Part shown: in pieces, positions 10,801-61,307 of the stretch
Layout: each line of letters begins with the position of its first letter
Numbering within the stretch: the stretch's first letter is position 1
NCBI RefSeq assembly: GCF_000485595.1
Contig: NW_014577074.1
Coordinates: 681,110 to 745,109, forward strand
Direction of reading: 5' to 3'
Source: Priapulus caudatus
Lineage: Eukaryota
DNA: 64,000 nt
The notes under the pieces: generated by a model
The model's input: the letters and a program-made list of their open reading frames with translations, nothing else
Databases searched by the model: none
What the model was told of the DNA's origin: nothing
Program-made: the position numbers and the translations under genes

Positions 10801-13800
10801 TGTGCGCATTGACCTTTGACCTGTGACCTCCAATTTCGGCACAGTGATGGCTCCTACCATGATGCTATACACCACACTATCACGAGCCTAGGTCGAGCCG
10901 TTTAGATTTGTGCCGCAATTCTGCATTTCCTCCCTATACCTTAAAGTAAGAAGTGAATGTTCCCCCTTCTTTTACACCTCTTGACCTTTGACCTTTGACC
11001 CCCCAGCTTCGACATCCCAACTCGTTTTGACGATCCCCCCCAATGTGCCAAATATCGTGACCGTACGTCGAGCGGTTAAGATTTGTGCCCAACTGTTGAC
11101 AGACGGACGGACGGACGGACGGACGGACGGACGGACGGACGGACGGACGGACGGACGGACGGACGGACGGACAATCATGCGATTCTACAAGCTGCATCTG
11201 ACTATGTTATGTCAGATGAGCTAACAAAATCAAGCATTAACTTTTGCAAACTTACGAATCATAAACATCCTGGAATATATCCTTAAAGCGTCCATCATAC
11301 TTCTTTAGGATGGTGTTCTTGGTGCTCATGTACAAGACCCAGCCCTTAGCCAGTGCATATTGAAATGAACTATGTGCAAATTCTGTAATGGACTAAAACA
11401 AGGACAAAATGCAGTGACACAGTGTAAGATGAAAATTGTTAAAAGATAACGCTCACTCTGTTTTAACATGCACATAGAGTTTATTGATTTCAAAAAGAAT
11501 TGCATGAACCAATGATAATTACAAACAATGTCCCTAACTAGGTAATTTTGAGAGGCTTACCTTATCAGTGTTGAACATGCCAAGGGCAACACCTGGTCCT
11601 TCAAAATCATGAACCGTGTAGGTGACCGGCTTTCCCCCATCTGCAGGGGTGTACTTTATTTCCACTTTACCCGCACCAGGAACAAGAAAGTCTGTTGCCT
11701 TGTACTATATATTTTAGAATTAAATACAACACAATAGATATATTACACTCTTTATCATAACAGAGGTGTACCTCTCGCTCAATCTAACCAATGTTTAGCT
11801 ACATCATATGCACAAAAAATGCAACCAGCAGGTATATCTCACAATTCGTAATTGAATTGTAGTACAACATGCATTCATCATTGAGGACTGTGCTTCTATT
11901 GGTTGCTGCTCACCTGATCACCATAGGCATGACGACCAATCACAATAGGTTTAATCCAGGTGGTGACTAGACGCGGAATGTTCTGGCAGATGATAGCCTC
12001 ACGGAAAACTGTCCCTCCAAGAATGTTCCTGATAGTGCCGTTCGGAGATCGCCACATCTTCTTCAATTTAAACTCTGCAGAATTAATTAGTGATCTTTTT
12101 AGTTATATAAGGACATAACATTACAAGATGGTATATTTTCAAGCTGAAAGCCAAGTAATGCACATGGTTTGTGCCCAAAAACATGCACATTTTGGCTTTC
12201 CAGCAGACCTGTGCAAAAAAGTTAGCAAACATAGGAAGTTTACGGAACAATATTTTAATAATTGCCACCTGAGATAACTATTGAATGTATTCAATGTAGA
12301 TGGCTATGTTTAAGACTGCGAGCAACAACAACAGCAAAAATTTGTAATATATGCTACCCACTAAACTAACAAGTTAACTTACCTACTACTCTGTTCTCAT
12401 CTGGTGTTATAGTTGCACATTTGATTCCCACATTGTATTTTTTGATGGCATGGGCACAGTCAATTGTCACTGAAACATGGAAATTGCCTTAGTGAGAATT
12501 TTAGTATGTATGTGTGCATTTGCATGCGTGCTTGCGTGTGTGCACGCATGCATCTGCACATGTGTATCTGTATATGATATAAGGTGGTAATGTAGATTGA
12601 AAGGTACATTAACATGGTACATGATTATAAATCCTTATTTATATACCGGGTTCATTGGTACAAGAAGATCAATGGTGGTATGAGAACAAAAAAATTGTAC
12701 AATCAGCTTGATTCAACTGGGAGAAGTGGAGTCGAGTGATGTGCGACAAATGACTGATAGTTCAACTGACAGGAAACATCTACAGAACTGTAATACTACT
12801 TAAAAGTAATACTGGTTTATGCTACAGTGGCAAAACTTGATCACAATGTCAGTTTACTAAAGATGATAGGAGAGTTCCAGCAAGGAATCCAGGGTTCTCC
12901 CCAGGATGAAATTCAAACAGGGGGGAGGGGAGGGGGAGGGGGGAAACTAGGGGGTCCGGGGGGCATGTATTTTTACCGTACCACTAATTAATGCGTAAAA
13001 TCGCCACCACACCATAGACGGTATTTGGGGTTCTTGTATATATAAGATAGCCGAGTCGGTGTACAGTTAGTGTTGGGTTCGGGACATATGTTAACTGTTT
13101 GTACTTGTGTATTGTCTGCAGTGCATGCGTGTTACGGTAAAAATACACGCGTCAGGTGTCCTGGTCGAATGGGAATTCTTGACGATCGATTCCCGCGCTG
13201 GCAAACTTTTATTGTGGTGGAATTTAATCGGGGCGGAGGTAATTTAAACGGGGCGCAACGATTGAAACAGGGGGGAGTTTTCCCAAACGGGGCGCGCCCC
13301 GTTTGCGCAACGTAGGGAGAACCCTGGAATCAACAACAACAACAAAAACTAGAACTGAATCGGTCTTTTGACGATGAGACATGACAGAAAAAATCCATTT
13401 TCACAGGCAAATGACAGAGTAAACAGAATGGATACCAATTTTAATGAGCATGAAAAGGTGGCCAGTCAAGTAAAGATTGGTGAGAAGATTTTCAGAACAG
13501 GCACTGTAATTTTTTGTGCACCATCTTCCAGCCTATTTTTTTTACAAATGCAATCGATCTGGGCATTCCAGCAAATTTGCTGATAGGTATTTAAGATAAA
13601 GTGAGTAGGTAAAGGTTATGGGCAATTTAGACCAGGTAATGCATATATGAGTTAGGATACTCATGCAGGGGAGGGTTACTTGTTCATCTTTATACTGTAA
13701 ATTATAAGATAAAGAACTGCATCGGGAGTGAAAAAACGTACAGATGTTACTGGTTGCATTAATTTGATCAATGATAAATGACAAGGATAATAGCGGGCCA

Positions 13801-16800
13801 AGCACAGAACCCTGGGGCATGCCAGATGCAACATACATATTGTATACATATAAGCACGCACGCACACACACACATATAATTTACACATTTTCTATAGACC
13901 TGATAAGACTATTAAATTTATGAGCACAATGCAATATATTTTACCTTGATCATTCGTGGCATCTCTATTTTCAAGTCCAAGATCAAATGACTTGATATCG
14001 AGTTCGACATATGGGAAGATGAGTTTCTCTTTGATAAGTTCCCATATTATTCTATCAAAAGATTAGTTTAAAATTAATCCTATTTCCCTGAGTATGAATT
14101 AAATGTAATTAAAGTCATGGCATGCATGTTGCAATTTTTACTATAAATATTTTACAGGCACAACAACCATGTACTATGTTGACAGCAACATCCAGGTTGG
14201 CCTACTCTCATTTCGTCAGTCTACTCCCAGAATGGGTAATATTAATTCCCATTTCGTCTACTCCCAGAATGAGTAATATTCCCATTTCGTCTACTCGCAG
14301 AATGCGTAATAACATGCAAGTGGGAAACCCTGCCTTTTTCTGTGAGTCTATGAGACTATAACTACTCAAAGGTGTGAATGGCTTAATACAAATTTTACAA
14401 TGACACTTAGTAAGAGGTATGATGATATATCAGGAGTGAATAATAGAGATCTCTATTATTCACTCCTGATGATATCATGCCTTTCATGTGACTCTAGGAC
14501 AGTAACAAGTCGGTAACCAACTAGTCAAAGGTGTGAATGGCTTAACGGTTATCTGGCTTATAACACAATGCCACCAATACTAGGAGAAATTAGTGTGGAT
14601 GCCACTATACAAGAAATCTTGTGTGGATGCCACTCAAAAGTAATATTTGACACGTATATATATGTCTATTTATTAGACAATTTGAGAGTAGACTAGGTTA
14701 TAAATTTTTCGTGCTACCATAGTTTCTATTTTTGTCAAGTTGACAAGTTGTCTTTTGGTTCCTGTAGTCTATGTATGCCAATCATATCCATATTTTACAT
14801 TTATAAATGATTATTTAGTGGACAAATTGATAGTAGACAAAATGGGAATGGGGTAGATTTTTAGTGTAGACGAATCAGGGGTAGTTGAAATGGGTGTAGA
14901 CCTCCAAGCAATAAACCATGACGACGACATTTGCAGGATTAACTGAACCATGAAAATATTCTGAACGAGTTACCTAGCACACATCACCTCCAGCAAAGAT
15001 CAATGACCCTAACATACAAGCATACATAGCACACGTGTAATCACTATTTATACATTCTTGAACTGTACCCCGTGCACATGCAATCCCACATGAACTTTGG
15101 TGTTTCTAACTACCACATTAATTGTTTCAGATTACATTATAGTTCAAACAAATGTACTTTCATGCACATGCATAGACACATGCATGCATGCATGTACACT
15201 TTTATCTACTGTACATTTATCAAATATAGATGGTTGGTAAATTTTAGAATTTGATTGTATTTACATTAATTCCGGCCTCGCCTTCAAATAAATTTATTTT
15301 ACTACTTCAGGCTAGATCAAAACAGTGAGATCATAGATAACAGAAGCACAGAATGTATGAACTAAACATCGAATTATAGTGGCAGTGAAAAGAATTTAAA
15401 TTGCTTGCAGAGAGATGTTTGTTCCATGAGAATTTTACATCAAGCAACAAAATCAATATGACCTTTGGGTGTTATCTGGCATCTCCGGAAAGCTCTAGTA
15501 TCAGCAACTTCCCCACAGGCATTTAGAGGACAAATTTTCAGCACAATCAATACCAGAGCTAGCTATCTGACATCTCCCTTTGTAAGCCATGGCAAACTGT
15601 ATCGACAAAGGCACTACAGCTGCTGTATCCCCACGAATTTCCGGAGTTGAATTTTATACGTTACATGTACAGTTCAATTTGTTAAGTGAATCGTTCTGTG
15701 ACAAGCACCTCGTATAATTAAACCTAGAGTGTCACTTTGCAGTACCCTAAATATGATACTATATGAATTTCCTGAGTTTCAAATGCTCCTCTATATATCT
15801 ATATTATGATTTCAGAAGTGTCATAATATAGAATATAGTATATATATTATGACACTCCTGATGACATATCATGAATTTTCTTACGCTTATATCTAATCAT
15901 TTAATAACTTCGATCAGGACATCCACCTGTACACAATATGCTTCCTTCACAATTCTACTATGAATAGAGAAAATATGCAAAAGTTGATACTATAATAGCC
16001 ACATTATGAAAATGTGATGTATATTAATTTCAGTTTAAATTTTAGGCTAAATATAACTCCAAAAATAGAACTTCAATATCTGCAATTATTATTTCATATA
16101 TGGCTATACTGTAAATCTGAAAATCTTGTACTGTAAATCTGTTAATTTGTACTCAACAAACCTGTGCAGATATACAAGTTTGGGATAATCATGAGTATAA
16201 GATGGCCATATGTGCCTCGTCCCATCATATACACATCATTCTAATCAGTCAGTGTTAATCTTTTTGGGTGTTTCAATTGATTCTATAGCTAGACAGTGTG
16301 TGCGTGTGCGCGTGCGTGTGCGTGCTCCGGGGTATATCCACATTACCAATTTAGCAATCGTATAAGAGGAGATTACAGCAGGCATCACTTGTCAGCAATT
16401 GTGTGATGATCCTTGAATGTCACCGGCAAGTTAGTTGGCATATCGTTAGTTACACAAAACCATGTTAGAAGAATGGAAGGAAAAACTATTGTTTACACCC
16501 TGTTCTACAACACTGTTAGAGAGACTGAGAGAGTATCTTAATTCGATCAGGCTTCAGCTTTAACTGTTTCGATTTTTTTGAACATTCATCGTTCAATATC
16601 AAGCAATTAAAATTATATGCAAAAACTTTAAAAATGCCACACATTTGGAAGTTTGATTTTGAATTTTTCCACAATCCTAGTTTGCATGGGACCCGGGTGC
16701 GTGATTTTTTCTCCCACTCACATAGTGGCATTAATTTGCATAAGCGGCGCTGATTGGCTGGCGGTTTCGTGCGCGCCATCTATGAGTTGTGAAGATTTAT

Positions 16801-17601
16801 GAGCCCATTATCACAGTCAGTACTACAGTATCATACTATATACAGTATGTGCTTTTGCTCTCGTTTTTATTCATGAAAATCCGTAATGAATCCGTGATAG
16901 TCAGCTATATTTCTTGCTGTGCATTGACAAAGCTTTTCCATGATGAGTTCACTGGTATAAAATTAACGGTAAAAGTGTCGCACGGGCAAAGTGTAGCGAT
17001 GCGGACATAGCGCCTGTATACACAGGTTATTTTAGACTCCGCGCCACCGCGCTAGCGAGCCTATAACGGCGCCTTTGTTTAGTGCCATTGCAACAGCCAA
17101 TCATCGCCACTTATGCAAATTAATGCCACTATCTGAGTGGGAATAAAAATCACGCGACCCTGGTACATATAGTTCGCATATGTGTGCTAAACTAAAACTA
17201 AACTAGGATTTGGCCGAAATTTGTCACTTTTGCCGTTTTGGTGCCCAAAAAATCGCTCAGCAAGAGGGAATTTGCCAGCTTTGCACACTTGAACATATCG
17301 CCATCGTATTTTCATAAGATATAATCGTATTTTCCTACATACATAACGGCACTATAATGCATAACATAAGAACCTACAAGTTAACGAATAGTTAGAACCG
17401 CTCACCTCGTCATTTCATCTCCCTTGACTTCCACCACGGTGCCACCTATAAAATAATGTCATGATATACGTTACAACTTACAAGTATAACTAAACACGGT
17501 TATAGAATGTAAAACAATCCAACACACGTAACTATATCATATCTAAGATAACCGATTTAAAAACCAAAATAATACACCATTATACCAGTGATTTTCCCCA
17601 T
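7878..17601 (-). CDS. IDH1: Cytosolic NADP-dependent isocitrate dehydrogenase, 414 aa
   Basis: 11 exons: 17586-17601, 17406-17445, 13945-14051, 12383-12469, 11914-12074, 11561-11704, 11256-11392, 9523-9674, 9121-9261, 8236-8401, 7878-7971 (1245 nt in total). Starts [19 protein letters not shown], so there is no mitochondrial presequence. Contains [47 protein letters not shown] and [11 protein letters not shown]. Ends TTDRKL*. Confidence 0.97.
10015..11224 (-). mobile_element. Non-autonomous Helentron/HINE (DINE-1-like) element, family A copy 1
   Basis: Read on the minus strand: 5' TTAGCTCATCTGAC hairpin, then a (CCGT)n microsatellite (~11100-11172), TGACCTTTGACC motifs, and a 3' subterminal inverted repeat GATGAGCG plus GC hairpin plus ACTTGT. 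Inserted in a T-run with no TSD. A close copy lies at 26988-28187. Confidence 0.8.
12890..13326. mobile_element. Non-autonomous DNA transposon with CAGGG termini (hAT-like ends)
   Basis: 12-bp TIRs CAGGGTTCTCCC / GGGAGAACCCTG. GAATC is repeated on both flanks (only 5 bp, not the 8 bp typical of hAT). Confidence 0.6.
14196..14917. repeat. Degenerate element with inverted subterminal tandem repeats
   Basis: CCCATTTCGTCTACT units at 14200-14316 face reverse-complement-like AGTAGACAAAATGGG units at ~14830-14900. A 28-bp direct repeat lies inside (~14379 and ~14517). Confidence 0.45.
14431..14468. repeat. 38-bp perfect palindrome; candidate TIR-only transposon footprint
   Basis: CAGGAGTGAATAATAGAGA + TCTCTATTATTCACTCCTG. 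ATGATAT occurs on both flanks (offset by one AT on the left). Confidence 0.6.
15813..15860. repeat. 48-bp hairpin with 18-bp arms; candidate TIR-only transposon footprint
   Basis: CAGAAGTGTCATAATATA ... TATATTATGACACTCCTG. Degenerate flanking repeat ATGATTT / ATGACAT. Confidence 0.55.
16673..17210. repeat. Inverted-repeat (MITE-like) element in IDH1 intron 2
   Basis: Arms 16673-16760 and 17094-17210 are reverse complements (CCCACTCACATAGTGGCATTAATTTGCATAAG vs CTTATGCAAATTAATGCCACTATCTGAGTGGG). Each arm has an octamer and a CCAAT. Confidence 0.65.
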
Positions 17602-20169: not shown

Positions 20170-20275
20170 AAATATAACTCTATAATATAGCGTCTATAAC
20201 ATAACTCTAACAATAGCGTCTATAACATAACATAACTCTATAATATAGGTCTAAAATATATAACTCTATGATAGC
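20170..20275. repeat. Short AT-rich minisatellite upstream of the homeobox gene
   Basis: About four degenerate ATAACTCTATAATATAGCGTCT-like units. Confidence 0.6.
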
Positions 20276-20493
20276 GCAAGACTAGAAACTCTTTTCTGGG
20301 AATGACGGAAAGAGCCGAATGGGTTTTCCGATTGGTGTAAAATGTGGTGGTGGCGTGATGCACGTGCTGTCGCGCGCGCACGTGCTGCGTGGGTGCACTG
20401 TGCGTGGGTGTCGTTGTATCACATTGTTTATGGACTCTCGTACATAATGAAGTGATTACATTGTACTTAAAAGAAAAACAACAACATCAAAGC

Positions 20494-23400
20494 ATGGATG
20501 ATCAACTTAAAAAGTATACTGAAGCGTGGCACGGGCTGAATGGCGATAATGATGACCATTTTAGGATTACATTAGCCGGAGAAATATGTCGCATTCTAGC
20601 TGAAAGAGGAGCATACGAAAAGATGGATGCCTTCATTACTAAGGAAATTGTGAACACTGACGGCTATTTTGATAACGAGAAATTTGCTATAAATGTTATT
20701 AAACTTGCAATCCATAAAAATGATTTCACCAGAGCCTACAAACTGATAAAGGTACGCATTAATACTTTACCGAGCGCATTGTTTTTTCCCCCTAGTTATG
20801 ACTAGTTATGAATTTAATTCAATTGACTAACTTTTAAGTCAATTATTTTATAATGATTCCATGTAAGCTAGTACATGGATTTGTCATAAAATAATTTACT
20901 CGTATATTGTCATGAAATCCGATGAAATTATTCCAATATCAAATTATGGTAGTTTGCGAATATTGCTGAATATTTATTATTATACTTTGTTGCAGGATGG
21001 CCGTTTCGCTGGAAAAAGTAGGATGATTAGACTGTGGGATGGCGCACACTACAAAGAAATAGAACTGCGCACGAAAAGAACACTGACATCCCTAGACAGG
21101 TTCAGAATAAGGCAGAGGTAGTATGCCTAATCATATGTAATAATGTAATTACGTGGTTTCATTGCGATATGCTAAGATTCATTGCGATATGCAATATGCA
21201 TATCCGCACCATTTTGCATCTAAAATAGTAAATAAAATTTAGGAGTAATGTTCACGTACATACTATCAATTGCGTATGTCTCTGTATTATTAATTGGTAT
21301 TAAATGCTGGTCTACTCTAAGACATTGTGATCCGTTTTAAAGGTATTTGCCACCTGGCAGCATTCTGCCACATGGTGTAAGGCCAAAAGTGACCATTAAC
21401 AGCAAATCGAGAAGGGTGCTGAGTAACTGGCTTCATGAACACGAAAAACATCCCTTTCCATCAAAGAAAGAAATTAGGGAATTATACAAACTGTCCAGAC
21501 TTTCCTCGACACAGGTGACGACACAGCTTTTGTAATAATAACTATGCATGGCCACATAGATTCAAGGACCATCTGATTGATGCATGGCTACCATATCGCC
21601 GCTGCTGTTTTACTGCTACTAATGCTGCTGCTTCTGATGATTTTGCTTTACCACTGATACAACGGTTACTTCTGCTCTCTACTAATTATTATAATTATTA
21701 TTCTAATTTTACACTTAGGTACGCAACTGGTTTGTAAATGTACGGCGCTGTATGAGAAAGCAGGGACGCTTGCCGAAACGCCAACCCAATGTGCATGCTA
21801 AACAGATCTGCAGGACTGAAAGGGTAGACAGTTCGACAATGGAATATAAAGACACAGGGTCAGCTGTCTTATCTCCACACGTAGATGCTGCCAAGTCTGA
21901 TGCCAATTGTAATGGAATCAACATAGACGTTTCTTATAACATATCCAAGGGTGGTGATATTGCAGGCACATTGGCACCAGTAGAAAAACTTTTGGGGAGT
22001 TCTTCAGAGTCATCCCAGAAACAAGAGGTTTCTCCAGTTGGGAAAAAGATAGTAGAAATAGGTTCGTGTGTAGGCGAGGGAATATGGCATGAAGAGAATC
22101 ATCAAAGACCTTTGTTACTCAAACCCGAGCCCATCACAAGTACAAAATATGGGCATTACAACATTGATGAGACTGTTTGCAGGAATGCTGGGCTTCTTTC
22201 ATTGACTCAACAGCTTTCAGGCAATGACTTTGAGACTCCATCTTTATCAGATTCACCTTTAATTATAGGTGCCCCACAAGACGTAACAGATCCCATTTGC
22301 TTGGGTGCCAACAGTCCTTTGGTGCCTCTGCCAACATTTTCACAGAATATGACCATGGGCACAATTTCTTTCTTTGTCCCCAGTGTTAACGATGTTACAT
22401 TGCTAGATAGAACTGCTCATGCCAGTGCTGAATGTTGGCCCTCTCTATCAACACTCACTTATTTACCAACTGCAGAAGTTAGCAATGATAATATCAGCTC
22501 AGTGTCTACTCCAAAATCTTTAGGTACCCCTCCAAAAAACGTCGAACTGTTTAAGCTACAGATGGTCCAAAACATTAATCCCCTGCAGGATCCGACAGAG
22601 AATTTCTCATCTAGCTCTTCTGGAAGTTGCCCAGTGCAACAGGTTTTAGGTGCTACAGATGCAGAATTGTTAGCAAGCTTTATACTTCCACCATTGGCTC
22701 CATCCGACACAGGTGGTTCTCATGTGTTTATAAATGACCCTGGTGATTCATCGAGCTCACAGTTATACTTAGGTGATCCAATCTCACAGTTATCATCAGG
22801 TGGTCCACACTCTCAGTTGTCATCAGGTGATCCATGCTCCCAGTTGTCATCAAGTGATCCATGCTCACAGTTGTCATCAGGTGGTCCATGCTCACAGGTG
22901 GTCTCATGTGACCTTGGTTTCCAGTTAGGTTCATGTGATCCGGATTCCCAGAATTCTCCATGTACGCCTGGTTCCCAGTTGTCTTTGAATGATCAAGATA
23001 TATATCATCCTGCTAGTGCTAGTGGACCCGGGGCACAACTGGACTTTGCTGACATGACTGTTAACCAAATTCAGACAGGGAATTTAAGTTCCCAGTCATC
23101 GTACGGGCACACAGATTGGCAAAGGAATTTTTCTCATCCATGTTCAGATTTGATATGCCCCCAGTTGCAGTTTCCTGGTGGGACATCAGTCCAGTTGCCC
23201 CAAGGTCGTACAGAAGCAGAAGGAATTAGCATCGCTGCTCAACTTCCCTTCAGTGATGATGGTGATCAGAGCTCCACAGGTGGTACACCATTCCAGTTTC
23301 ATTCAAATGAGAAGGAAGTAAAGTCTAACTGCCTGGGGACCATAGAGTCATTGTATGGAGGAGTGAACTCTACTACACAGGAACTGCATGACAACTCAAA

Positions 23401-23720
23401 TGACAAGGTAATGAGTAATACCCAGTGTGATTGGTAAATCATAAAACGTGCATTTTACTTAAATGTGGTAACACGAATTTGTCTACAATTGTCTGTCTAA
23501 ATCCTATACAAGTAGAGCGTGGTAAAATCGTCTAATATACGCTATTAATTTAAAATCGGATAAACCTACATTATAATTAAAATCAGTTTTGCATGATTTT
23601 GCTGATGTCTGCCCTGCCTTATAGGACAGCCATCTTAGAGAGGCTGCTGCCATGGCACTAATAGAGCTTCACCATTCTCCACCTGGCCGAGACATCCTGA
23701 ACCGAAATGTATTATTATAA
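20494..23720 (+). CDS. Divergent homeobox protein: SIX domain + TALE-length homeodomain + long Ser/Pro-rich tail (ANHX-like), 778 aa
   Basis: Exons 20494-20751, 20996-21117, 21343-21514, 21719-23407, 23625-23720 (TAA), 2337 nt, all phases consistent. SIX-domain signatures: ICRILAERG, NE, AIHKNDFTRAYKL, LWDGAHYKEIE, RFRIRQRYLPPGSI. Homeodomain: KSRRVLSNWLHEHEKHPFPSKKEIRELYKLSRLSSTQ|VRNWFVNVRR. Confidence 0.88.
22743..22985 (+). repeat. Coding 27-bp (9-aa) tandem repeat GDPCSQLSS in the homeobox tail
   Basis: GDPISQLSS GGPHSQLSS GDPCSQLSS SDPCSQLSS GGPCSQVVS CDLGFQLGS CDPDSQNSP CTPGSQLSL in the 21752..23437 frame. Confidence 0.85.
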
Positions 23721-25760
23721 TACTCGTGAGTCATGATTAACAGATGCATGTCTTGTAAGAAAGGGTAATGATAATTCACATCTCATGAAACTTTTCAGTC
23801 ACAATATTTATGTGTTTCAATGAAATGCTGTAATATAAATGTAGTGTGGTATGGATGTTTAATATTTCAATAGTTTTCATGACCTAGAACCACAAGTGGA
23901 TAGTTTTGTACACAGCCATAGGAATTGGCCTCTCTATTGCTCAATTAGTTTGTTACTTGCTTGACTAGAAGTCAGGATACTGGTCCAACTTGCTATCAAG
24001 TATAATTGTTTACAAATGTTTTTCTCATATATTTTACAGTAAATTGCACAAACATGATTTTTTGATTTTACTACGTTGATTAAACTTGTCATAAATATGT
24101 GACATGGAGAGTCAGGCATATGATTATATATCGCGTGGCTTATTGGATTCTGATTAATTGTATCAGTAATGTATTCATCAATTATACACTAACTTGTAAG
24201 TATTGGCATCCCTGCTTCTACTTGGCATGAATACAGAATGAGTCAGTTGCTCAGTAAATAAATTTTGTTTTCTCAATTAGGAAAATATTAGGCTTAAGAG
24301 TAAGTCTAATCATATAAACAGCAACTGAATAATGGTGAATAGCATTGTCAGAACATCTAGATTGTACACAATAAGTGTGTTTGATATTATAGTCAACCAT
24401 TTAAAACTGCTAAATAGGCAGACTTTATAAACCATCAACTGACGTGATACTTCTTGTACTAGATCACTCATATAAGTGTTAAGGTACTGGTTAGGTAATC
24501 CGGGATTATGTGCTAATCAACAGAACTGACATTTCATTCTAATTCTGAAATATATTCTGATACTAAATCAACCTAATGAAAAGAATCTTGGGAAATGTTA
24601 ACAAAAATGGTCAATTTGTATTTCCAATTATTTTATTTTAAAATTTACTTGTGAGTTTGTTACAATGTTTATGTATTTAATGTTATAAAACGTTACTGTT
24701 TATGAACATACATAGTTGTTACCATAACCATTTAAGAATTTTTGCAAACAGTTATCACGTTTAATTCAATATAAGTGTGTTCTTATAAACTTGTCTTATT
24801 CTATTTCATAATGACGTCACGTGTACATACAGTTTACAAACATAAACGTATCTGCCATTACATTACAATTATCCACTAGCCTTGAGCTTCACACAGTTTT
24901 CTCAATTTGCTTATTCAATGAAACGTGAAATCTGCCTTTGTCACAGTGTTGATGGTGCTTATAGGCATGTTGTTCCTCGTAAACATGTCTGACGTGTCCT
25001 AAGAAATTTGATTTCCATAGCTAGTTGATCTACGCACGTGTTTGTGAAACAGGTGACTAAATGTTAAAGCAAATCACATGCAAAATAAGCAGTCTGGTAA
25101 ACAGGCAAACATGTTCATTCGGATGCACACACTAGTATAACTACTTAAAACTTAGATAACTTATTGGCAATGTTTACTCGACTAGCTATTTGAATTACAA
25201 TCCCTTACAGCAGTCACAGTATAGACCCAATGAAATGTTGCTCACACGATTTTAAATGCTCTCCAGGATTTTCTTTTCCATGTTATATCAAAGCGTTTAC
25301 ATATCAGCACAGGGTAGACATGGGCAGTCGTATGTCCTTTTGTTAACATAGTGGCTGGTAATGAATCAAAAGGAAAGCCTTGCAATTGCATACTGCTAAG
25401 TGCTTTGCTTTGATAAGGGATGCTGTTAATCACTGTAATCAGACAGGCCAAACTCAATTGTATAGGTACACCATCTACATTGCATTAACTGTGATTTTTG
25501 AATAAAAAGTTTAACAGTTTACAAACAGTTTCATAGTAGCAGCAAAACACCTTTACACATGTTTATACAAATTAGCCGTGCCCAAACTTCAAGAACGAAT
25601 CACATTTTGGTAACAATGCCCAACTACTTGACAAAAATGGTAATGTTTGGCATCTAGGGATCCCCAACATAAAAGCCAACTTTTACATGATCATTTTATT
25701 GCATTCCCATGAACATATTGGTATTTACACGCAGGGAATACAGATTCACTTTAAATAAAG

Positions 25761-28700
25761 CTATTTATTCAACTTTATTACATAATAAAGTACAAAAAAT
25801 ACAAACAACGCAAAGATTATAAGGTAACACATCAACCTGTTGTGGCCAGCACGACTCATCTTTGTCAGTCGTCCCATGGTGGATGCAAGAAGTCCTCCTG
25901 AGCTATCGAAGTCACTATCCTACAAAGACCCCATCAGGGTGCTTGACATTTACTATACACATGAATACCTCTACACCACAATAGCTACCATATTTTATTA
26001 TACAGTGCATTATTATAACCAAATAAATGCACTTGACATTTTCACACACTTGACATATGTAACTTTTAATTAATCATAAACAATTGTATTGAATGATGTA
26101 ACATACCATCTCTCCCAGAAATGTATTTTGAGTTCTGACTTCATGTCCAATGTCTATAGATAACTGTAAACAATTGAAAAGCACTTGTAAATAAATAAAT
26201 GAATAACAGTATTATAATGTTAAAGAGAAGATTAGAAGGACCTGAATCTCATCTAGGAATCGGGATCATTTGGCTCGTACGCAAAGGCAACTTAGCATGC
26301 TACACATGATTTCTAGAAGGAGTTCTAGCATCAAACTGGCTAGCTTTCCTATGGAGAACTAAAGTTTCTATATTATTGCTCAAGCAACTAGGTGGCTCTA
26401 GTGCAGCCAGTATATATAATCTGCTATCCTATGATCCCATATTGGCTTGGCGGCACATACACATAAACTTTGAGAAGTTAAATTGCATACACTAAGATAT
26501 ATATCATCATTAGCTGCAATATTTATATATTTATGACAGCTACATATAAAAGTGACACAATACCAGTCATAACCTGCCACAATATATATATGTTGTAACA
26601 GTTTGTAACAGTTTCAACAGACATTATATAAAAACAAACATTTTCAGTAGGCTTATAGTTTAACCAGGAAAATAATTCGAAGTAATACTGACATCTTTTA
26701 ATGCTTTAACTTTCCCTGAAAGGTCTTCCACTAATCTCTGATTTTCTTCTTCATACATGTCTGCGGACATCTTTGTCCCATCACCTGCAGCACATAAATA
26801 AATACATTGATAAAACCAAACATTTAAAACAACTGAGAAGATTTAATAATTAATTATTACCAAAGTTATAGAGACATATTATTTAATTGTATATATACAT
26901 GCCCCACAAATTGAAACATGCTTTTGTATTTTATTGGCATACCTAAGTGAGCCACAAGTCGAGTAAATGACGTCATAATTTTCCTAGACAAGTGCCGCAG
27001 AGCGACAGCGCTCATCTAACGTCTACTGCGGTGACTGTGGTGGAGTGGTGGGATTCTAGTAAACCCTGTTAGTCCCAAATGTGTTCACATACACGCCGAA
27101 ACAGTGGAATGCACAGGGATGGTATCAGGAACCTTTCTCAAAAGAATGTTCGTTGGGATCGTTATGAAAGTTGCCACGAGATGGCATGTACGTTTAACTG
27201 TCTTCAAGCTTAAAGATGGAAGCTCGCATCGTAACGTAGTAGCTACAAACTATTTGCAAGACAGAATAGGTAAGCACTCATCCATTTACCTACGCAAGCA
27301 TACAGGCTGCAATAGAGAGCTGCCACCTGTAACCAATTAACCCAGGCAAAAAACTACACAGTACCACCACCACATGCACTGCAGTGGCCACTGGCAGTGG
27401 CATACGTTACATGTCACTACTGACAGTACAGAATGCCATAGAAATTATACGATTTAAGGAGCATAAACCCTTCTTCAACCAAATTTAGCTTTGGAAATTT
27501 CACTGTGCCATTGTAGGCCTCATACATCCAGGCATGTATAGATCTACTAGCAAACCCGGGCAGTCAAATTCCTTTCTAACAGACAGTAAACAAAATCCTG
27601 TTTAACGCCTCCTCTTGAGGGTCAAAAGGTTATCTGACAACTTACTCTTCGCATGTCAGCAGAAAGTAGATTTCATGTCCTTTCAATAAAGCCATAAAAT
27701 GCTAGGTCCCGCGGCTGAAACAAAAATAGTTTTTCAATCGGCTCCGTCAGACCATGTGCTCAGAGAATGTCTAAAATCTGGGCCCTGTGCCCCATTGACC
27801 TTTGACCTGTGACTCCAATTTCGGCACAGTGATGGCTTTTCCTCTACGATGATGCTATACACCAACTACCCAGCGAGCCTAGGTCAAGCCGTTTAGATTT
27901 TTGTGCCGCAATTCGCATTTCCTCCCTATACCTTAAGTTAAGGAGGGGAATGTTCCCCCTTCTTTTACACCTATTGACCTTTGACCTTTGATCCCGCAGC
28001 TTCGACATCCCAAACTCGTTGTGACGATCCCCCCGACGTCCCGAATATCGTGACCGTACGTCGAGCGGTTAAGATTTGTGCCCAACTGTTGCCGGCACGA
28101 ACGGCCGGACGCACGCACGGACGGACGGACGCACGGACGATCGTGCGATTCTACAAGCTGCGATCTGACTTCGTCCAGATGAGCTAATAAAACGATCNNN
28201 NNNNNNNNNNNNNNNNNNNNNNNNNNNNNNNNNNNNNNNNNNNNNNNNNNNNNNNNNNNNNNNNNNNNNNNNNNNNNNNNNNNNNNNNNNNNNNNNNNNN
28301 NNNNNNNNNNNNNNNNNNNNNNNNNNNNNNNNNNNNNNNNNNNNNNNNNNNNNNNNNNNNNNNNNNNNNNNNNNNNNNNNNNNNNNNNNNNNNNNNNNNN
28401 NNNNNNNNNNNNNNNNNNNNNNNNNATGTATGTATGTATGTATGTATGTATGCATGTACGTGTGTTAATGACATCTAGTATTTTATCAAGTATTTGATAG
28501 TATTTGATAGTATTTTGATATTAAGCAAGCTTATGCTTAATTTCTATCCTGTATGGGTACGAATGCAGATCCTGAATCAAAATTCTCCTCAGAGACTCCC
28601 TCGGAATGCCCAATTGTTGGCTGCGCCAACCGAGGTCCTGACTGAGGTGATGTTCTCCTCTGTCCTTGCACTTCTTTGTCTCCCTGAGTGTGTGGGAGCA

Positions 28701-31700
28701 TTCCCTTTAACATTGAGGTTCTTGACAGTCCCTTGCACCCTCAACTTCTGTACCTATCTTAGAATGAGTCCTTTGTTTGGATAGGTGTGGCAATTGAATT
28801 CCCTCTTGAAACGTACTTGTACAGTTTTGAACAATTTGGTCGAAAAGTACGTTTCCACGGACCATGATTTCTGTCGAAGAGTCCAAGGCATCTTGAAAAA
28901 CTCTTGATTCTAATCTGATTGGGTTGATTAACACTTGTTTGGGTTGCATTTATTTTGGGTCACCCTGTATTATATACTATATATATACTAAAAAGTATCA
29001 TAAATGACAATCATGACAAATGTTGAAAATAAATTATGAAAATGAAAGGCACTCTACATATATCTATATCAGAAGTAGATAATAGGGAAGGAGTGTGACT
29101 TCAATAAACAAGGGAAATTCGTCATTTACTAGCCTTAGAATACTCACAATTTACTACACCGCCTCGCCGAGTGAGCAAGAGTGCGTTAGTAGCTGCCTTT
29201 TGTTTCAAGATCGGCGAACATTACATTTGGTTTGCTGGCAACAGAATGGATAATCGTGTCGTACGTTTTAGTCTGTATCTCCGGATTGCGGGTGTATACG
29301 AGGAAACGATTTCGCACGATGCTAGGCGAATGTACTGTAAATCGTAGGTATTCTAAGGCTAGTAAATGATGAATTTCCCTTGTTTATTGAAGTCACACTC
29401 CTTCCCTATTATCTACTCCTGACCTATATGCACTTAATTAAAACAGAGCACCCCTTTCACCGCCTTTTAACATTACATTGCTACTGTCACCACAACACAG
29501 CTGTTGTCTGACAAATTAACATGTACACACGCATGCGCATATGCACGCGCCTGCACGCACGCACAGACACACGCGCAAGCACGCGCAAGCATGCACACAT
29601 GCACACACACACACACATACACACGTTTAACAGGTATTTTGTAGTCATATTTAGCGACATTTGATAATTAGATAGATATTATATTTAAAGTAGCAAATAT
29701 TCTGCACAGAGTGGTCATTTGGTCGGTCTGCACACAGCCCAGTTGTGGTCCAATAACTATAACCTCCTCATTGGCGATACTACTACAATAGGCCTACTAG
29801 TCGGCTAAGAAGGAAATATAACCATAAGATTTCATGAATCTTCCCGGTACTAGGAACTTGTGCTCAGTTGTTTGTATTACAATTTTGTGGAATTCTTCAG
29901 TTGGGCCGACCACATCTGCACTCATCCCTCAACTGCACATCATCCATCACACTTACAAATTGGCATGCTGAATTGACTGTGCTGTTGATTGAAATTACAC
30001 TGCAGTTCTCCCCAGGATCACCTTCTCAGTAGCATTACCACAGATTAACAAATACATAACGAAAACATAATACGAGTGTAATGCATCATGTATCTGTATT
30101 GCAATCATGTATCATGGCTGCATGCATCATGCAACCATTTCCATAGGTGCGGGCAGAGCTACATCACAGATCAGTAGTCACGTGACCACCAGCAGAACGC
30201 CGGTGAAAACAATACGATCATTTGGTTTGGAAGTTTTAATAAGTTTTTTTCATGATATTCCTTCTAATATGCCTTACGAGTATATAGATAGCCTTTCTGT
30301 AGCTATAATTATGACATTATGTAAGATACATATGATACATAAGATACATAAGATAAATATTTTAAAGGCTCACAATGCGCATCCAAACGCTAATTTCTCC
30401 AGTACTAGACTAGCAAATACTTCGTGTCATGCATAATCACACTACCTTATGACAAAATAAACTCTAGTTGCTCCCATTTCACTGCGCGTTTGCTTAAAAC
30501 CCACAAGAAAAAGGTGAGAAAACTGGCATTCTGGCGCAAACGCCGACTGTTTGCCAAACAATATAGCCTCAAAGTGGTGACGTGACGTCACGTNNNNNNN
30601 NNNATACATGTGCATAACAGCTGGCTCGCTGCTGGCTACACACACACACGAACACACACACGAACACACACACGAACACACACACGAACACACACACGAA
30701 CACACACACGAGAGCGATTACATTACCTCACTGCAACTCCGTTGTGCGGAGGTAAAAAAGTCTCACGTACAAAGATACTCGGTCAGAAGTTTCAGACAAA
30801 AGTCATTATTTATTAAACACGTATTCACGATTCTCTCGCACAAAAGCATGCAGCTGTTAGTTCAAATTTCAAATTCAAATTAAAGTTGAACTAATCAACA
30901 TTCCAGGCAGTGAACCAATCACATTCAAGGACGAATTCAAGGGCAGCACGTCCGTGACTCTCACAGCGCGGCTCAGCGGCGGCAGTGGCGACCTCGCGTG
31001 GCAGCACACGCAACTATTCCGACAATCGTTTGAAGACACGAACAATGCGGCGTTAGACATACGAGTCACGTTTCAGTGAGAAGACATGCAAAACAGAATT
31101 CTCTGGTCCTTGTTTTTACCAAGATTTCACCGTAGTAGAATGGATTAGCTTAACGGAAAATGTAACCTAATTAATGTTGGTAATATAGATTCACCATTCG
31201 TTAATATCAAACAAGTGGCCATACAACATTTTCGACACATGGCTATAGAACGACTTCATATAATACAACCCAGCAGACGAAGTAAACGCCAAGTGGAGGG
31301 CTACTTAAATATACTAACCACATAGCATTATTTATCCAACTGTTTTGTGAAATATATGTAATAAACAATAAAGTCACTTTAATTATTATGATCTACTTTG
31401 CTAATTACATCAGTTTTTCTTTCATTACCAGCTTCGTTCATTCTATGAGATGACAAGTACATGTAGCTCACGTATATATCGACTTGCAGCTATAATATCA
31501 ATAGCGCAATTTATCACATTTTTGTGAACATACACATGGCAGTTCAACATTACTTCATTTTCAAACAGACAAGTAATGAACTGTTTCGATATTACTTTCT
31601 ATTTACAATACCGGTCTGTAAATATCTGCAAAATAGGGATGGAACAGTCTGACCATGTTGGCTTACAACCATGAGCCAACCATTTACAAGGTAGTGCGAA

Positions 31701-34700
31701 CAAGCTCACAGACCAAACTGATTTCCCGAGAAATAATGAAATCGTAAAACATTTAAAAAATAAAACTTGAATTTACTATACTTACGCAAAACATGAGCAT
31801 TGTTATATAGACTACAACGTGTTTGACTTAGTTGTGGGAGTGCCTACAATGAACATGGTGCAAACACTCACTTATAAAGCTATGGGTTGACACGTGGGGA
31901 CGACACCTGCATTTCTTTGAGGCAATAATGTGTTGTTACTCGAAGAAATGCATAATATAAGCAAGCATTCATAACGCGCAGAAAGCAATTTTCCCCCTGG
32001 TCGGAAGTTTTCTGCAAAAATCTCACAAAAAAGTCCAGCAACAAAGCACCTCTAGATTCGAGCAGAAAACATTCTAGAGCCATCGGCGATCTATATACAC
32101 TTTTAGCAGATAACGTAAATACAATCCGTTTCAATACATAATTTTTTATCACTGGATGACACACCTGCCATGAGTATTACGGGAACACGAGAACGGATAC
32201 ACCAAAGTGCTTCTCTAGTAGGTAGGGTGCGTACGCATACTACTCTCACTGGTATAGATGCACACCCCAGCTCTATATCTAGTATACGTGCATCCTAGCA
32301 TGCTCTAGTGGTGTGCTGGATCACAGTGCCTTCTAGTGGTGTGATGCATCACATGTACAGTGCCCTCTAGTGGAGCAGTGCATTACAGTGCCCTGTAGTG
32401 GAATGACGCATCACGGCGCCCTCTGGCGGGGAGCGGCGCGTCACAGCGCCCCCTCCAGGAGCACGTGCGCGTATGCAGCGGCCGAGACGAACTCTTCGCG
32501 CTCGCAGGCGTGTTCGCGGAACAGCGACGGGTGTAGTTCCTCGTTCGTCATGGGCTTCCACGCGTAGCCGAGGCTCTGAGACACCGTCTCGCTGAGGTTC
32601 GCGATCGGCCGACCTGAGTGTGAGAGACAGACTCAGAACTCAATTTAGAACTAGACTTAGAACAAGACTTAGAACTAGACGTAGAACTCGACTTAGAACT
32701 TGACTTAGAACTAGACTAGAGGTTCGCGATCGGCCGACCAGCGTGCGAGAGACAGGGGTCGACTCAGAACTCAATTTAGAACTAGACTTAGAACTCGACT
32801 TAGAACTCGACTTAGAACTCGACTTAGAACTAGACTTAGAACTCGACTTAGAACAAGACTTAGAACTCGACTTAGAACAAGACTTAGAACTCGACTTAGA
32901 ACAAGACTTAGAACTTGACTTAGAACAAGACTTAGAACTCGACTTAAAACAAGACTTAGAAAAAGACTTAGAACTAGACTTAGAACTAGACTTAGAACTA
33001 GACTTAAAACTAGACTTAAAACAAGACTTAGAAAAAGACTTAGAACTAGACTTAGAACTCGACTTAGAACTCGACTTAGAACAAGACTTAGAACAAGACT
33101 TAGAACTCGACTTAAAACAAGACTTAGAACTAGACTTAAAACTAGACTAGAGGTTCGCGATCGGCCGACCAGCGTGCGAGAGACAGGGGTCGACTCAGAA
33201 CTCAATTTAGAACTAGACTTAGAACAAGACTTAGAACTCGACTTAGAACTCGACTTAGAACAAGGAACTCGACTTAGAAAAATACTTAGAACTAGACTTA
33301 GAACTCGACTTAGAACAAGACTTAGAACTAGACTTAGAACTAGACTTAAAACTAGACTTAGAAATAGACTTGGGCGTCGGGACGTAGCGAAAACGACATC
33401 GCAGATTATTAAAGGCAGGTACATTGCAGCAGTGTACGATGGTAAATAGCCAGAGCACCAGCCGCTTGAATTTAGCCATTTGTTTCACTAATTCGGCGAC
33501 GAGGCCAGTCAAGAAAGTCGTACCGAGCGCCGAATTAGTGAAACAAATGGTTGAATTCAAACGGCTAGACATGAACTCCACTGTTATTACTATGCTCTCA
33601 TTATGACTGAACCACGCGCCCTATCACCACACTAGATTTTGTATGAGCCCAGGCCCCTCTATACGGCCTTCGTTTCGTGAGTTCAAAATGAAGATAAAAA
33701 AAAAAATGGAAGCGCACCTATTTCAATGACGCCATCTTCCTGAGTCGTGGCGATACAGCACTGCGGAATGCAAAAATGTTTCAGCTTCGACTTCAGCAGG
33801 CGTGCTATGGCAAATATGTCTTCCTGTGCAAACTCGTACCCTGAAATGCATAAAAGCATGCCATGATTGTTCATCAGTTGCCTAACCGTAGGCAATATGA
33901 GAGCAATCACCTTTACCACTGTACATTTGAATTTCAGATTTTAGTGTCTTTGAGGTTTGAAGGCAATAAAAATCGCTATTAAAGTGAGTAGGAGGAATGA
34001 TTCTTTTTTTATATCGACTAGCCGTAAACTGCCTGCCGCAACTGTTTTGCCACGCGCACTCGATAGATTATGCAATAGGTGTCTGAACGACGGAGACAAT
34101 CATCTACTCCACACTAACGAGTCCCATCAGAACGCAGCACTGCATATCCCGTCGAAGCACAACACAATACAACATGACACAACACAACACAACACAACAC
34201 AACACAATGTAGTGCAATGCAACACAATACAATACGACGCAACACAACACGACACAACACAGCGCGACACAGTACGACGCAAAGTAACGCAACGTAACAC
34301 AACACAAACAAGTCCCGCATTAGCGACAGTGCTGTTCTGAGGTCTGCTGCTCTACTGTACTGGCCTTCGTTTCTGCAAAAGGTTGAAAGCCTGTTCTATC
34401 GCTAAACCGGCTACGTCATCATCAAAACTGTGTAGCATAGGTATTAACACTAAAAACTAAACCCTAACAATGCATCCTACTTCATACCTGCTCGACCGTC
34501 CGTGCGTCCGTCAACAGTTGGGCACAAATCTGAACCGCTCGACGTACGGTCACGATATTCGGGACGTGGGGGGATTATGAAAAGGACTCGGAATGATCAA
34601 TTTGGGGGTCAAGGGTCAAAGGTCAAGATGTGTAAACGGAGGGGGAATATTTTCCCCTTATAGGAGGAAATAGGTGTATAGGAGGAAATACGGAATTGTG

Positions 34701-61300: not shown

Positions 61301-61307
61301 GGCAACC
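50743..61307 (-). CDS. DGKQ: Diacylglycerol kinase theta (type V), 3' portion: RA, RRM-like, catalytic and accessory domains
   Basis: Exons 61165-61307, 60632-60693, 60282-60432, 59892-60049, 59517-59668, 58841-58947, 57991-58141, 55792-55995, 55370-55525, 54892-55057, 54300-54398, 50743-50856 (TAA). Motifs [48 protein letters not shown] and PVQVDGEPW. 5' exons were not found and probably lie beyond the window. Confidence 0.93.
55245..55317. repeat. (GAT)n microsatellite in a DGKQ intron
   Basis: Direct reading of the sequence. Confidence 0.95.
56030..57995. repeat. ~2-kb 35-bp minisatellite built from the DGKQ splice-donor region
   Basis: Unit CCTGTTACCTGCCTATACCTGTCACTAATTCAGCC; the last unit runs into the exon boundary at 57991. 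The middle of the array is indel-rich. Confidence 0.93.

What the first reader, a model, noticed from the sequence alone, without database searches (positions are those of the whole stretch)
20494..23720. Intact homeobox gene fusing a SIX domain to a TALE-type homeodomain (invertebrate ANHX-like or a new class)
Seen: five phase-consistent exons encode a clear SIX-domain pattern followed directly by a homeodomain whose helix 1-2 loop, WLHEHEKHPFPS, aligns without gaps to the TALE pattern (Meis WLFQHLTHPYPS). Helix 3 reads WFVN, and an intron falls at TQ|VRNWF. Known: canonical SINE/SIX proteins lack the three-residue loop extension (WYxxNPYPS) and have K50 (WFKN); TALE proteins have the extension and a small or hydrophobic residue 50, but carry PBC/MEIS-type domains rather than a SIX domain. 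Vertebrate ANHX is the one protein I recall with a SIX-like N-terminus and an anomalous homeodomain, and ITLAGEICR and PPGSILPHG resemble it. Helix 1 (KSRRVL) and STQV look SIX-like, so the homeodomain itself is mosaic. Inference: this is a deep ANHX ortholog, a lineage-specific SIX-TALE chimera (spiralians have TALE expansions), or a retained SIX/TALE intermediate. It could recruit EYA or Groucho-type cofactors to non-SIX DNA sites.
Basis: partly seen in the sequence, partly recalled or inferred. Interest (0 to 1): 0.9.

Follow-up and report, generated by a model that had tools for sequence, protein, structure and literature searches.

The report
Ancient SIX–TALE homeobox gene, likely ANHX
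This penis-worm gene joins a SIX domain to a TALE-type homeodomain and belongs to an overlooked family found from jellyfish to amphioxus, which likely includes the human orphan germ-cell gene ANHX and may preserve the form from which the SIX eye-and-muscle genes arose.

Summary
Five GT-AG exons give a 778-aa protein identical to an NCBI Priapulus caudatus model, with a SIX domain (56.6 bits, cut-off 27.4) and a homeodomain three residues longer than SIX1's in loop 1, gapless against Meis/PKNOX/TGIF. RNA contigs splice introns 3 and 4 and hint at intron 2.

It is not a lineage-specific chimera. Of 149 relatives, 41 belong to one family with this SIX-domain type (5 truncated); 26 named ones span cnidarians, molluscs, an annelid, a nemertean, a scorpion, echinoderms, hemichordates and amphioxus, and they outscore canonical SIX proteins. 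The family includes jellyfish csSix-X (2012) and oyster and limpet TALE-XIII (2018). The nearest ESM-Atlas cluster is ANHX, and human ANHX carries the family residue at 8 of 8 diagnostic SIX-domain columns (by eye, no tree).

A conserved C-terminal AAxxL-like helix suggests Sin3-type repression of non-SIX DNA sites (inferred). Whether the family keeps the ancestral SIX state or arose by early fusion is unresolved.

The architecture is known in cnidarians; uniting three orphan names into one cnidarian-bilaterian family was not found in my searches.

The parts
20494..20751 (+). Exon 1 (aa 1-86): an extra N-terminal helix (aa 2-14) not seen in most canonical SIX proteins, then SIX-domain helices; I31 corresponds to SIX1 V17
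20996..21117 (+). Exon 2 (aa 87-126): C-terminal part of the SIX domain, with R123 = SIX1 R110
21343..21514 (+). Exon 3 (aa 127-184): SIX-type linker (one residue longer than in SIX) running without an intron into homeodomain helices 1-2
   Evidence: covered by an X1 contig
21443..21451 (+). Three-residue TALE loop extension (aa 161-163, by convention the residues just before the P-F-P motif)
21719..23407 (+). Exon 4 (aa 185-747): recognition helix 3 (N47, V50, N51, R53, R54), then a long Ser/Gly/Pro-rich tail predicted to be disordered
   Evidence: both flanking introns spliced in X1
21374..21766 (+). 63-residue TALE-type homeodomain (aa 138-200), split by intron 3 at Q44|V45
22755..22897 (+). 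27-bp in-frame tandem repeat, 5.3 copies, inside the disordered tail
23625..23720 (+). Exon 5 (aa 748-778 and stop)
   Evidence: intron 4 spliced in X1
23637..23672 (+). Conserved C-terminal helix (aa 752-763), family consensus of the form A-x-x-L-L-[DN]-L-S; AAxxL/Sin3-interaction-like by resemblance
   Evidence: motif class from PMC9890238
23721..24487 (+). Probable 3' UTR (low-depth RNA contigs)
   Evidence: X1 contigs at 23623-23771, 23823-24071 and 24115-24487

Best explanation
The gene is an intact, spliced Priapulus member of an old cnidarian-plus-bilaterian family of SIX-domain proteins with a TALE-type homeodomain (jellyfish Six-X, spiralian TALE-XIII, and likely vertebrate ANHX), and it is predicted to act as a DNA-binding repressor of sites other than those of SIX proteins. 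Shown: the gene structure, both domains, the loop extension, transcription, the relatives, and a conserved C-terminal helix. Inferred: (1) the SIX domain and homeodomain bind DNA together as in SIX1, but with another specificity, since SIX1's W122, Y129, K50 and Q54 are replaced and the protein has TALE-type V50/N51/R54 plus a family-wide Arg at position 3 (about 0.8); (2) the C-terminal helix recruits the Sin3/HDAC co-repressor (about 0.5); (3) EYA binding may persist, since V17 is kept as Ile, but neighbouring helix-1 residues differ (about 0.35); (4) the role is narrow, possibly gonad or germ line (about 0.35); (5) canonical SIX genes and this family descend from one SIX-domain + TALE-loop ancestor, canonical SIX having lost the loop and gained K50 (about 0.5).
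For: In a search of 1.84 billion representatives, 29 of the 35 best non-self hits are family members and none is canonical SIX; the first canonical SIX is rank 37. 30 of 30 aligned members match SIX1_SD and Homeobox_KN at E<=0.001. Loop length over 37 complete members including the query: the script scored +3 in 32 and +1 in 3; the two others read +1 and +3 by eye. SIX-domain tree: 28 family rows against 31 canonical rows, support 100/99. Placing the query inside Six1/2+Six4/5 is rejected for the SIX domain (p-AU 0.0003) and the homeodomain (0.037). Leave-one-out profiles: the query's SIX domain scores 115.7 bits against the family and 61.7 against canonical SIX, and 28 of 28 members prefer the family. 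Truncated genomic relatives break off at the same places as introns 1 and 3. The best non-self hit carries the name of the Craspedacusta Six-type protein and another hit is Nematostella XP_001633591, the pair described as Six-X. The published Patella and Crassostrea TALE-XIII homeodomains closely match hits P0033 and P0010 by eye. ANHX: nearest Atlas cluster by features (0.94, 220 of 256 features, 99 members, mostly Chordata). Human ANHX as printed in a supplement has the family residue at 8 of 8 SIX-domain/linker columns that separate the family from SIX, has A50 and R54, and ends in a matching C-terminal motif. That motif lies in the last 30 residues of 13 of 31 members (0.2 expected by shuffling) against 2 of 59 canonical SIX. 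Expression in print: csSix-X in gonads and mouth; ANHX testis-specific, FPKM 3.7 and under 0.1 in the other 58 samples, and raising germ-cell genes when overexpressed.
Against: The family was collected by similarity to the query, which inflates the query's own profile scores. Its monophyly is not shown: in homeodomain and concatenated trees it is an unresolved grade, and AU tests reject none of family-alone (p 0.23, 0.22), family+SIX (0.56, 0.30) or family+Irx (0.23). Animal Meis, Pbx, TGIF, Pknox and Mkx were not in the trees. ANHX was compared only by eye and by one language-model search (shuffled proteins reach 0.9 in 4-10 of 100 cases). It has a +1 rather than +3 loop, lacks the family's invariant Arg3, and has SIX-type F8, R13 and N47. 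It was not among the 30 hits looked up by name, nor returned by the junction-targeted search. None of 26 named members is a sponge, ctenophore or placozoan, while 17 of 18 ctenophore SINE homeodomains have K50, so the ancestral-state reading needs losses or missed genes. The motif pattern was written after seeing the alignment, and with a recollection of the ANHX tail. Oyster TALE5 is expressed after the trochophore stage and annelid TALE-XIII in regeneration, which does not point to the germ line. No binding or repression data exist for this protein.
Confidence: 0.75

Rival explanations
1. Same family, but born by fusion: in the cnidarian-bilaterian stem a duplicated SIX domain was joined to an Irx-like TALE homeobox, so it is an old chimera and not a retained ancestral state (the first option of Hroudova et al. 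2012, moved deeper in time).
For: The family consensus shares T47, A50 and R54 with Irx. The family homeodomain profile scores Irx (mean 78.9 bits) and other TALE (74.2) above SIX (65.0). Family+Irx is not rejected (p-AU 0.225). No sponge or ctenophore member among 26 named hits.
Against: SIX-type linker and TALE-type homeodomain lie in one exon and homology to SIX1 runs up to homeodomain position 1, so shuffling at present introns cannot make it. For 20 of 22 members the second-best profile is non-Irx TALE, not Irx. The best homeodomain tree found groups the family with SIX, though not significantly.
Confidence: 0.35
2. The proteins are not one family but several fast-evolving SIX offshoots that gained loop insertions separately and were pooled by the search; ANHX is a separate mammalian oddity.
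For: Long branches, no starred clade for the family in rooted trees, loop length varies (+3 or +1), and TALE-XIII only just met its authors' naming criteria.
Against: Shared linker insertion and Cys-Pro motif (27 and 29 of 35 against 0 of 15 SIX), Arg3 in 34 of 35, shared C-terminal motif and shared intron positions. Nesting in canonical SIX is rejected for the query.
Confidence: 0.1
3. A Priapulus-specific chimera or a gene-model artefact joining two genes.
For: The query is a long branch; intron 1 was not seen spliced; very few reads in runs X2-X4.
Against: The SIX/homeodomain junction lies inside exon 3, the same architecture occurs in eight other phyla, and introns 3 and 4 are spliced.
Confidence: 0.02

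Closest known systems
csSix-X of Craspedacusta sowerbyi and Nematostella XP_001633591 (Hroudova et al. 2012, PMC3340352)
   Same: SIX domain followed by an atypical homeodomain; best non-self hit (123 bits; 32% identity over 241 columns); same loop length, linker and C-terminal motif.
   Different: Described only for cnidarians. The passages seen discuss WFAN and Irx, and the words loop, insertion and three amino do not occur in the main text. The Priapulus protein has V50 and N47 in place of A50 and T47, and a much longer tail.
Spiralian TALE-XIII clade, including oyster TALE5 (Barton-Owen et al. 2018, PMC6118893; Paps et al. 2015, PMC5322547)
   Same: The Crassostrea and Patella TALE-XIII homeodomains match family hits from Saccostrea and Patella caerulea by eye; the oyster entry carries the label 'Protein sine oculis'.
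   Different: Defined on the homeodomain alone and treated as a spiralian novelty; 'SIX domain' does not occur in either main text. The Spirobranchus members are very divergent and were not checked for a SIX domain.
Vertebrate ANHX (LOC647589; Zhong and Holland 2011, PMC3141429)
   Same: Nearest Atlas cluster, with the same three Pfam families. By eye it has the same linker length and diagnostic residues, A50/R54, and a C-terminal motif.
   Different: Loop +1 rather than +3, degenerate P-Y-P motif, no Arg3, 379 aa. Filed as unclassifiable and traced only to placental mammals in that paper, though listed in the SIX homology group by Paps and Holland 2018.
Canonical SINE/SIX class (Six1/2, Six3/6, Six4/5; PDB 4egc)
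   Same: SIX domain directly upstream of the homeodomain; V17-, R110- and W87-equivalent residues kept; same fold.
   Different: No K50, no ETSY/QKTH/ETVY tetrapeptide, extended loop, basic N-terminal arm, W122 and Y129 replaced, extra N-terminal helix.
TALE class (Meis, Pknox, TGIF, Pbx, Irx)
   Same: Three-residue loop extension, small or hydrophobic residue 50, R54; homeodomain model superposes on Meis at 0.8 A over about 50 residues.
   Different: Carries a SIX domain; Pfam finds no PBC or MEIS domain in the query or in 30 aligned members.

Membership tests
SINE/SIX class | SIX domain N-terminal to the homeodomain | tested here: met
   PF16878 56.6 bits, cut-off 27.4
SINE/SIX class | Typical 60-residue homeodomain (PMC2211742) | tested here: not met
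   three extra residues against SIX1
SINE/SIX class | Lysine at homeodomain position 50 (PMC6125248) | tested here: not met
   V50; K in 18 of 18 canonical rows
SINE/SIX class | Nests within Six1/2, Six3/6 or Six4/5 | tested here: not met
   outside all 31 canonical rows at 100/99; nesting in Six1/2+Six4/5 rejected; nesting in Six3/6 had no AU test of its own
SINE/SIX class | Binds EYA through SIX-domain helix 1 | not testable with these tools
   V17 equivalent is Ile, C16 equivalent is Glu; no EYA sequence was available to fold
TALE class | Three extra residues between helices 1 and 2 | tested here: met
TALE class | Belongs to one of the canonical families (Irx, Meis, Pknox, Pbx, Tgif, Mkx) | tested here: inconclusive
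   outside the Irx clade (99/99) and no PBC or MEIS domain; the other families were not in the trees
Six-X / TALE-XIII family | SIX domain plus non-K50 homeodomain with extended loop | tested here: met
Six-X / TALE-XIII family | Longer linker, Arg3, C-terminal helix motif, intron positions 1 and 3 | tested here: met
   the linker Cys is Leu in the query
Six-X / TALE-XIII family | Forms a clade with csSix-X in a rooted tree | tested here: inconclusive
   one side of a 100/99 branch in the unrooted SIX-domain tree; monophyly neither recovered nor rejected with TALE outgroups
ANHX | Nearest large protein cluster and shared diagnostic residues | tested here: met
   Atlas rank 1, score 0.94; 8 of 8 columns by eye
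ANHX | Orthology by tree or synteny | not testable with these tools
   no vertebrate ANHX sequence was returned as a usable record, and no whole genome is held
Sin3-interacting (AAxxL) repressors | Short amphipathic AAxxL-like helix | tested here: met
   helix 748-763 predicted, block pLDDT 78; conserved
Sin3-interacting (AAxxL) repressors | Binds Sin3 and represses | not testable with these tools
   needs IP-MS or a reporter assay as in PMC9890238

The most novel reading that the evidence does not exclude
Six-X, TALE-XIII, ANHX and this gene are one unrecognised homeobox family present in the cnidarian-bilaterian ancestor, and it is the surviving link between the TALE and SINE classes: the SIX domain first joined a TALE homeodomain, and canonical SIX genes arose from it by losing the loop and gaining K50. 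Human ANHX would then be a gene of pre-Cambrian age, a Sin3-recruiting regulator with a possibly ancient gonadal role, not a mammalian oddity.
Probability: 0.4. Interest if true: 0.85.

Novelty: new member of a known kind. Interest (0 to 1): 0.62.

Why it matters
Homeobox classification treats SINE and TALE as separate classes and calls their mixing in trees artefactual (PMC2211742). A family with both hallmarks across nine phyla makes the origin of the SIX class testable. It also gives a deep ancestry and invertebrate models (Nematostella, oyster, amphioxus) to ANHX, a human testis and oogonia factor lost in mouse whose function was uncharacterised. It would also move oyster TALE5/TALE-XIII out of the list of spiralian novelties. 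Databases mislabel members as SIX1, SIX2, SIX6 or IRX-5, which explains why the family was missed.

Tried and rejected
Word-index searches with exon 1 and with residues 20-200 returned only the protein itself; they need shared 5-mers, so this was no evidence of isolation. A search aimed at the linker of the jellyfish protein gave 9 hits, all invertebrate or unnamed, and no ANHX. No whole genome is held, so synteny and the presence of canonical Six genes in this animal were not tested. No run on record as RNA held the stretch; raw-read runs X2-X4 gave 8, 11 and 5 reads on 20200-24200, mostly upstream at 20200-20333 where they diverge from the window, so they say little beyond low expression. 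A four-exon model ending at the in-frame stop at 23437 was rejected because intron 4 is spliced and exon 5 holds the conserved motif. Spiralian TALE-I and TALE-II were considered and dropped: their entries are labelled TGIF2LX and PBX4 and their homeodomains do not match the family hits. Amphioxus 'Atale' (recalled name) could not be checked: 0 papers. The concatenated tree and AU tests did not resolve the deep order. The SIX1-EYA2 structure paper is not held. A second Atlas search with the jellyfish protein did not complete. Rows dropped: P0078 could not be placed in the 60-column homeodomain set; P0017, P0018 and P0028 were mis-registered and left out and of the column table; P0021 was left out of the SIX-domain tree; further rows were thinned for run time (52 of 69, 46). 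Earlier scan notes held nothing relevant.
Full report
Observation. Joined by coordinates (20494-20751, 20996-21117, 21343-21514, 21719-23407, 23625-23720) they give 2337 nt, four GT-AG introns and a 778-residue protein identical to P0001, which NCBI lists as an uncharacterised Priapulus caudatus protein. Pfam finds SIX1_SD at 56.6 bits (cut-off 27.4) and Homeobox_KN at 46.9 bits (cut-off 24). Against SIX1 the query needs three extra residues in homeodomain loop 1 and one in the linker, while PKNOX1 aligns without gaps and TGIF1 without gaps through helix 3. The AlphaFold model is confident over residues 1-200 and disordered after, apart from a helix at 748-763. SIX1 is the only Foldseek hit at E<=0.001 and the homeodomain superposes on Meis at 0.8 A.

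Expression. Contigs of run X1 skip introns 3 and 4 exactly, and one has an 11-letter loose end equal to the end of exon 2; intron 1 was not seen. X1 behaves as RNA, since eight joints of the neighbouring IDH gene are spliced in it at depth 47 against 4-8 for this gene. Three raw-read runs carry almost no reads on the exons while showing IDH junction reads. The gene is therefore transcribed, at a low or restricted level.

Relatives. A full HMMER search gave 1265 proteins at E<=0.001, of which the best 150 were listed. Of the 149 non-self hits, 36 have a SIX domain plus a complete non-K50 homeodomain, 5 are truncated members, 86 are canonical K50 SIX proteins and 22 are other (20 homeodomain-only, 1 truncated SIX, 1 low-complexity). 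Among ranks 2-36, 29 of 35 are family and none canonical. I looked up 30 of the 41 by name; 26 had names: Craspedacusta, Nematostella, Actinia, Montipora, Desmophyllum (two), 12 molluscs, Owenia, Lineus, Centruroides, Diadema, Lytechinus, Saccoglossus, Ptychodera and Branchiostoma. None was a sponge, ctenophore, placozoan, insect, nematode or vertebrate. All 30 members of alignment A1 match SIX1_SD and Homeobox_KN.

Family characters. Over 37 complete members including the query, the script scored the loop as +3 in 32 and +1 in 3; the remaining two read +1 and +3 by eye. In alignment A2 (35 family rows, 15 canonical rows) the linker has Cys-Pro in 27 and 29 of 35 where SIX has Trp and a gap in 15 of 15, and homeodomain position 3 is Arg in 34 of 35 against 0 of 15. 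Truncated genomic relatives begin or end exactly at the query's introns 1 and 3. A C-terminal motif lies within the last 30 residues of 13 of 31 members with a tail, against 0.2 expected from shuffles and 2 of 59 canonical SIX. The pattern was written after seeing the alignment, but it also appears in isoforms not used to write it. In Priapulus it is encoded by exon 5.

Trees. The SIX-domain tree separates 28 family rows from 31 canonical rows at 100/99; placing the query in Six1/2+Six4/5 is rejected for both domains (p-AU 0.0003 and 0.037). Leave-one-out profiles assign 28 of 28 SIX domains and 21 of 22 loop-less homeodomains to the family; the set was gathered by similarity to the query, which favours this result for the query itself. 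With TALE outgroups (12 homeodomains that I label Irx from recall of the motif, and 14 unnamed TALE-type domains), canonical SIX sits on a long branch among family members. The deep order is not resolved: family-alone, family+SIX and family+Irx are all unrejected. Animal Meis, Pbx, TGIF, Pknox and Mkx were not available for the trees.

What is known. Hroudova et al. 2012 (PMC3340352; passages read) described csSix-X and Nematostella XP_001633591 as SIX-domain proteins with an Irx-like WFAN, unclassifiable, expressed in gonads and at the mouth, and proposed either a fusion or an ancestral gene, for cnidarians only. Barton-Owen et al. 2018 (PMC6118893; part of section 11, passages and supplement rows) erected TALE-XIII from homeodomains alone; its Crassostrea and Patella members match hits P0010 and P0033 by eye. 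Paps et al. 2015 (PMC5322547; passages) left oyster TALE5 unassigned and found it expressed after the trochophore. Zhong and Holland 2011 (PMC3141429; passages and one supplement row) found ANHX unclassifiable, in placental mammals and lost in rodents. Paps and Holland 2018 (PMC5928047; passages) list it in the SIX homology group. Class definitions come from passages of PMC2211742, PMC6125248, PMC2959044 and PMC1779571 and section 36 of PMC4901127. A paper joining these names was not found in searches (of 54, 156, 778 and 55 matches in 12, 34, 84 and 89 only the 40, 25, 25 and 30 listed were seen). Subscription journals are not covered, and bioRxiv supplements were closed.

ANHX. The ESM Atlas ranks a 99-member chordate cluster named ANHX first for residues 20-205 (0.94, 220 of 256 features), above a cluster named SIX6 (0.79). 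Human ANHX as printed in a supplement of PMC9890238 shows, by eye, the family residue at 8 of 8 columns that separate family from SIX (query positions 27, 117, 118, 122, 127, 130, 135, 136), the family's linker length, A50 and R54, and a terminal segment fitting the motif consensus. Against this, its loop is +1 (as in the sea-urchin, Owenia and Montipora members), it lacks Arg3, and F8, R13 and N47 are SIX-like. No tree could include it. I put orthology at about 0.8.

Mechanism. In SIX1 the SIX domain and homeodomain bind DNA together and helix 1 binds EYA; V17E abolishes EYA binding, Y129C reduces DNA binding and W122R is predicted to affect it (PMC7063838, passages). The query keeps V17 as Ile and R110, but replaces W122, Y129, K50 and Q54. 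I infer a different DNA site. N47/V50/N51/R54 resembles Meis and TGIF (residue roles recalled; the Meis site TGACAG is from PMC11325038, one passage), whereas most members have Irx-like T47/A50. The C-terminal helix resembles the AAxxL class that pulls down Sin3A/HDAC1 in Drosophila (PMC9890238, passages), so I infer a repressor, about 0.5. A gonadal role is suggested by csSix-X in gonads, ANHX confined to testis among 59 human samples (PMC5094009, passage and supplement rows) and its effect on induced oogonia (PMC11850904, passages). Oyster and annelid expression data do not point that way, so about 0.35.

Verdict. The gene is real and is a new member of a kind known from two cnidarians. It is not a canonical SIX (K50 and the 60-residue homeodomain are not met) and not a Priapulus invention. 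The new content is the family's reach across nine phyla, its identity with TALE-XIII, its likely identity with ANHX and the conserved C-terminal helix. Whether it preserves the ancestral SIX state (about 0.5) or is an early fusion (about 0.35) is the open question.

Noticed in passing
window 8236-17584+ (minus strand): Isocitrate dehydrogenase gene, head to head with the homeobox gene, its 5'-most spliced joint about 2.9 kb upstream of the ATG; well expressed in all four runs.
   Followed up: partly
window 25360-26842 (minus strand): Small spliced gene tail to tail with the homeobox gene; looks like a BET1-type SNARE (label recalled; only a weak Sec20 hit, E 0.028).
   Followed up: partly
window 567-698, 30861-31076, 45136-45423, 55773-61486: Other genes: a protein kinase exon, a PNGase PAW domain, a weak UBX domain, and diacylglycerol kinase theta. 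Only about half of the selected frames were scanned.
   Followed up: partly
window about 10000-11200 and 27000-27900: A repeated element with very high RNA depth (hundreds) and many mismatches, probably an abundant transcribed repeat family.
   Followed up: no
window 32640-33480: Long 12-bp-type tandem array giving low-complexity open frames on both strands.
   Followed up: no
P0014, P0015, P0023, P0030, P0115, P0097, P0099, P0121: Unnamed proteins with four to eight matched homeodomain stretches in tandem, mostly TALE-type; unusual, since multi-homeobox TALE genes were reported as rare.
   Followed up: no
P0058, P0112, P0137: Three K50 SIX proteins with a one-residue longer loop 1, showing that this loop can change length in canonical SIX too.
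   Followed up: no
P0017, P0024 versus P0006, P0078: Anthozoans carry two family lineages (two Desmophyllum proteins in separate starred pairs).
   Followed up: partly
P0049: Unnamed 125-aa fragment, 53% identical to exon 1 and ending at the same intron; the closest relative of the query's N-terminus.
   Followed up: partly
model m1570e238f8e2, residues 1-141: The SIX domain with its extra helix aligns to helical-repeat subunits of the proteasome and SKI complex at Z 10-11 and rmsd 3-3.7 A, below the level trusted for helical bundles.
   Followed up: no
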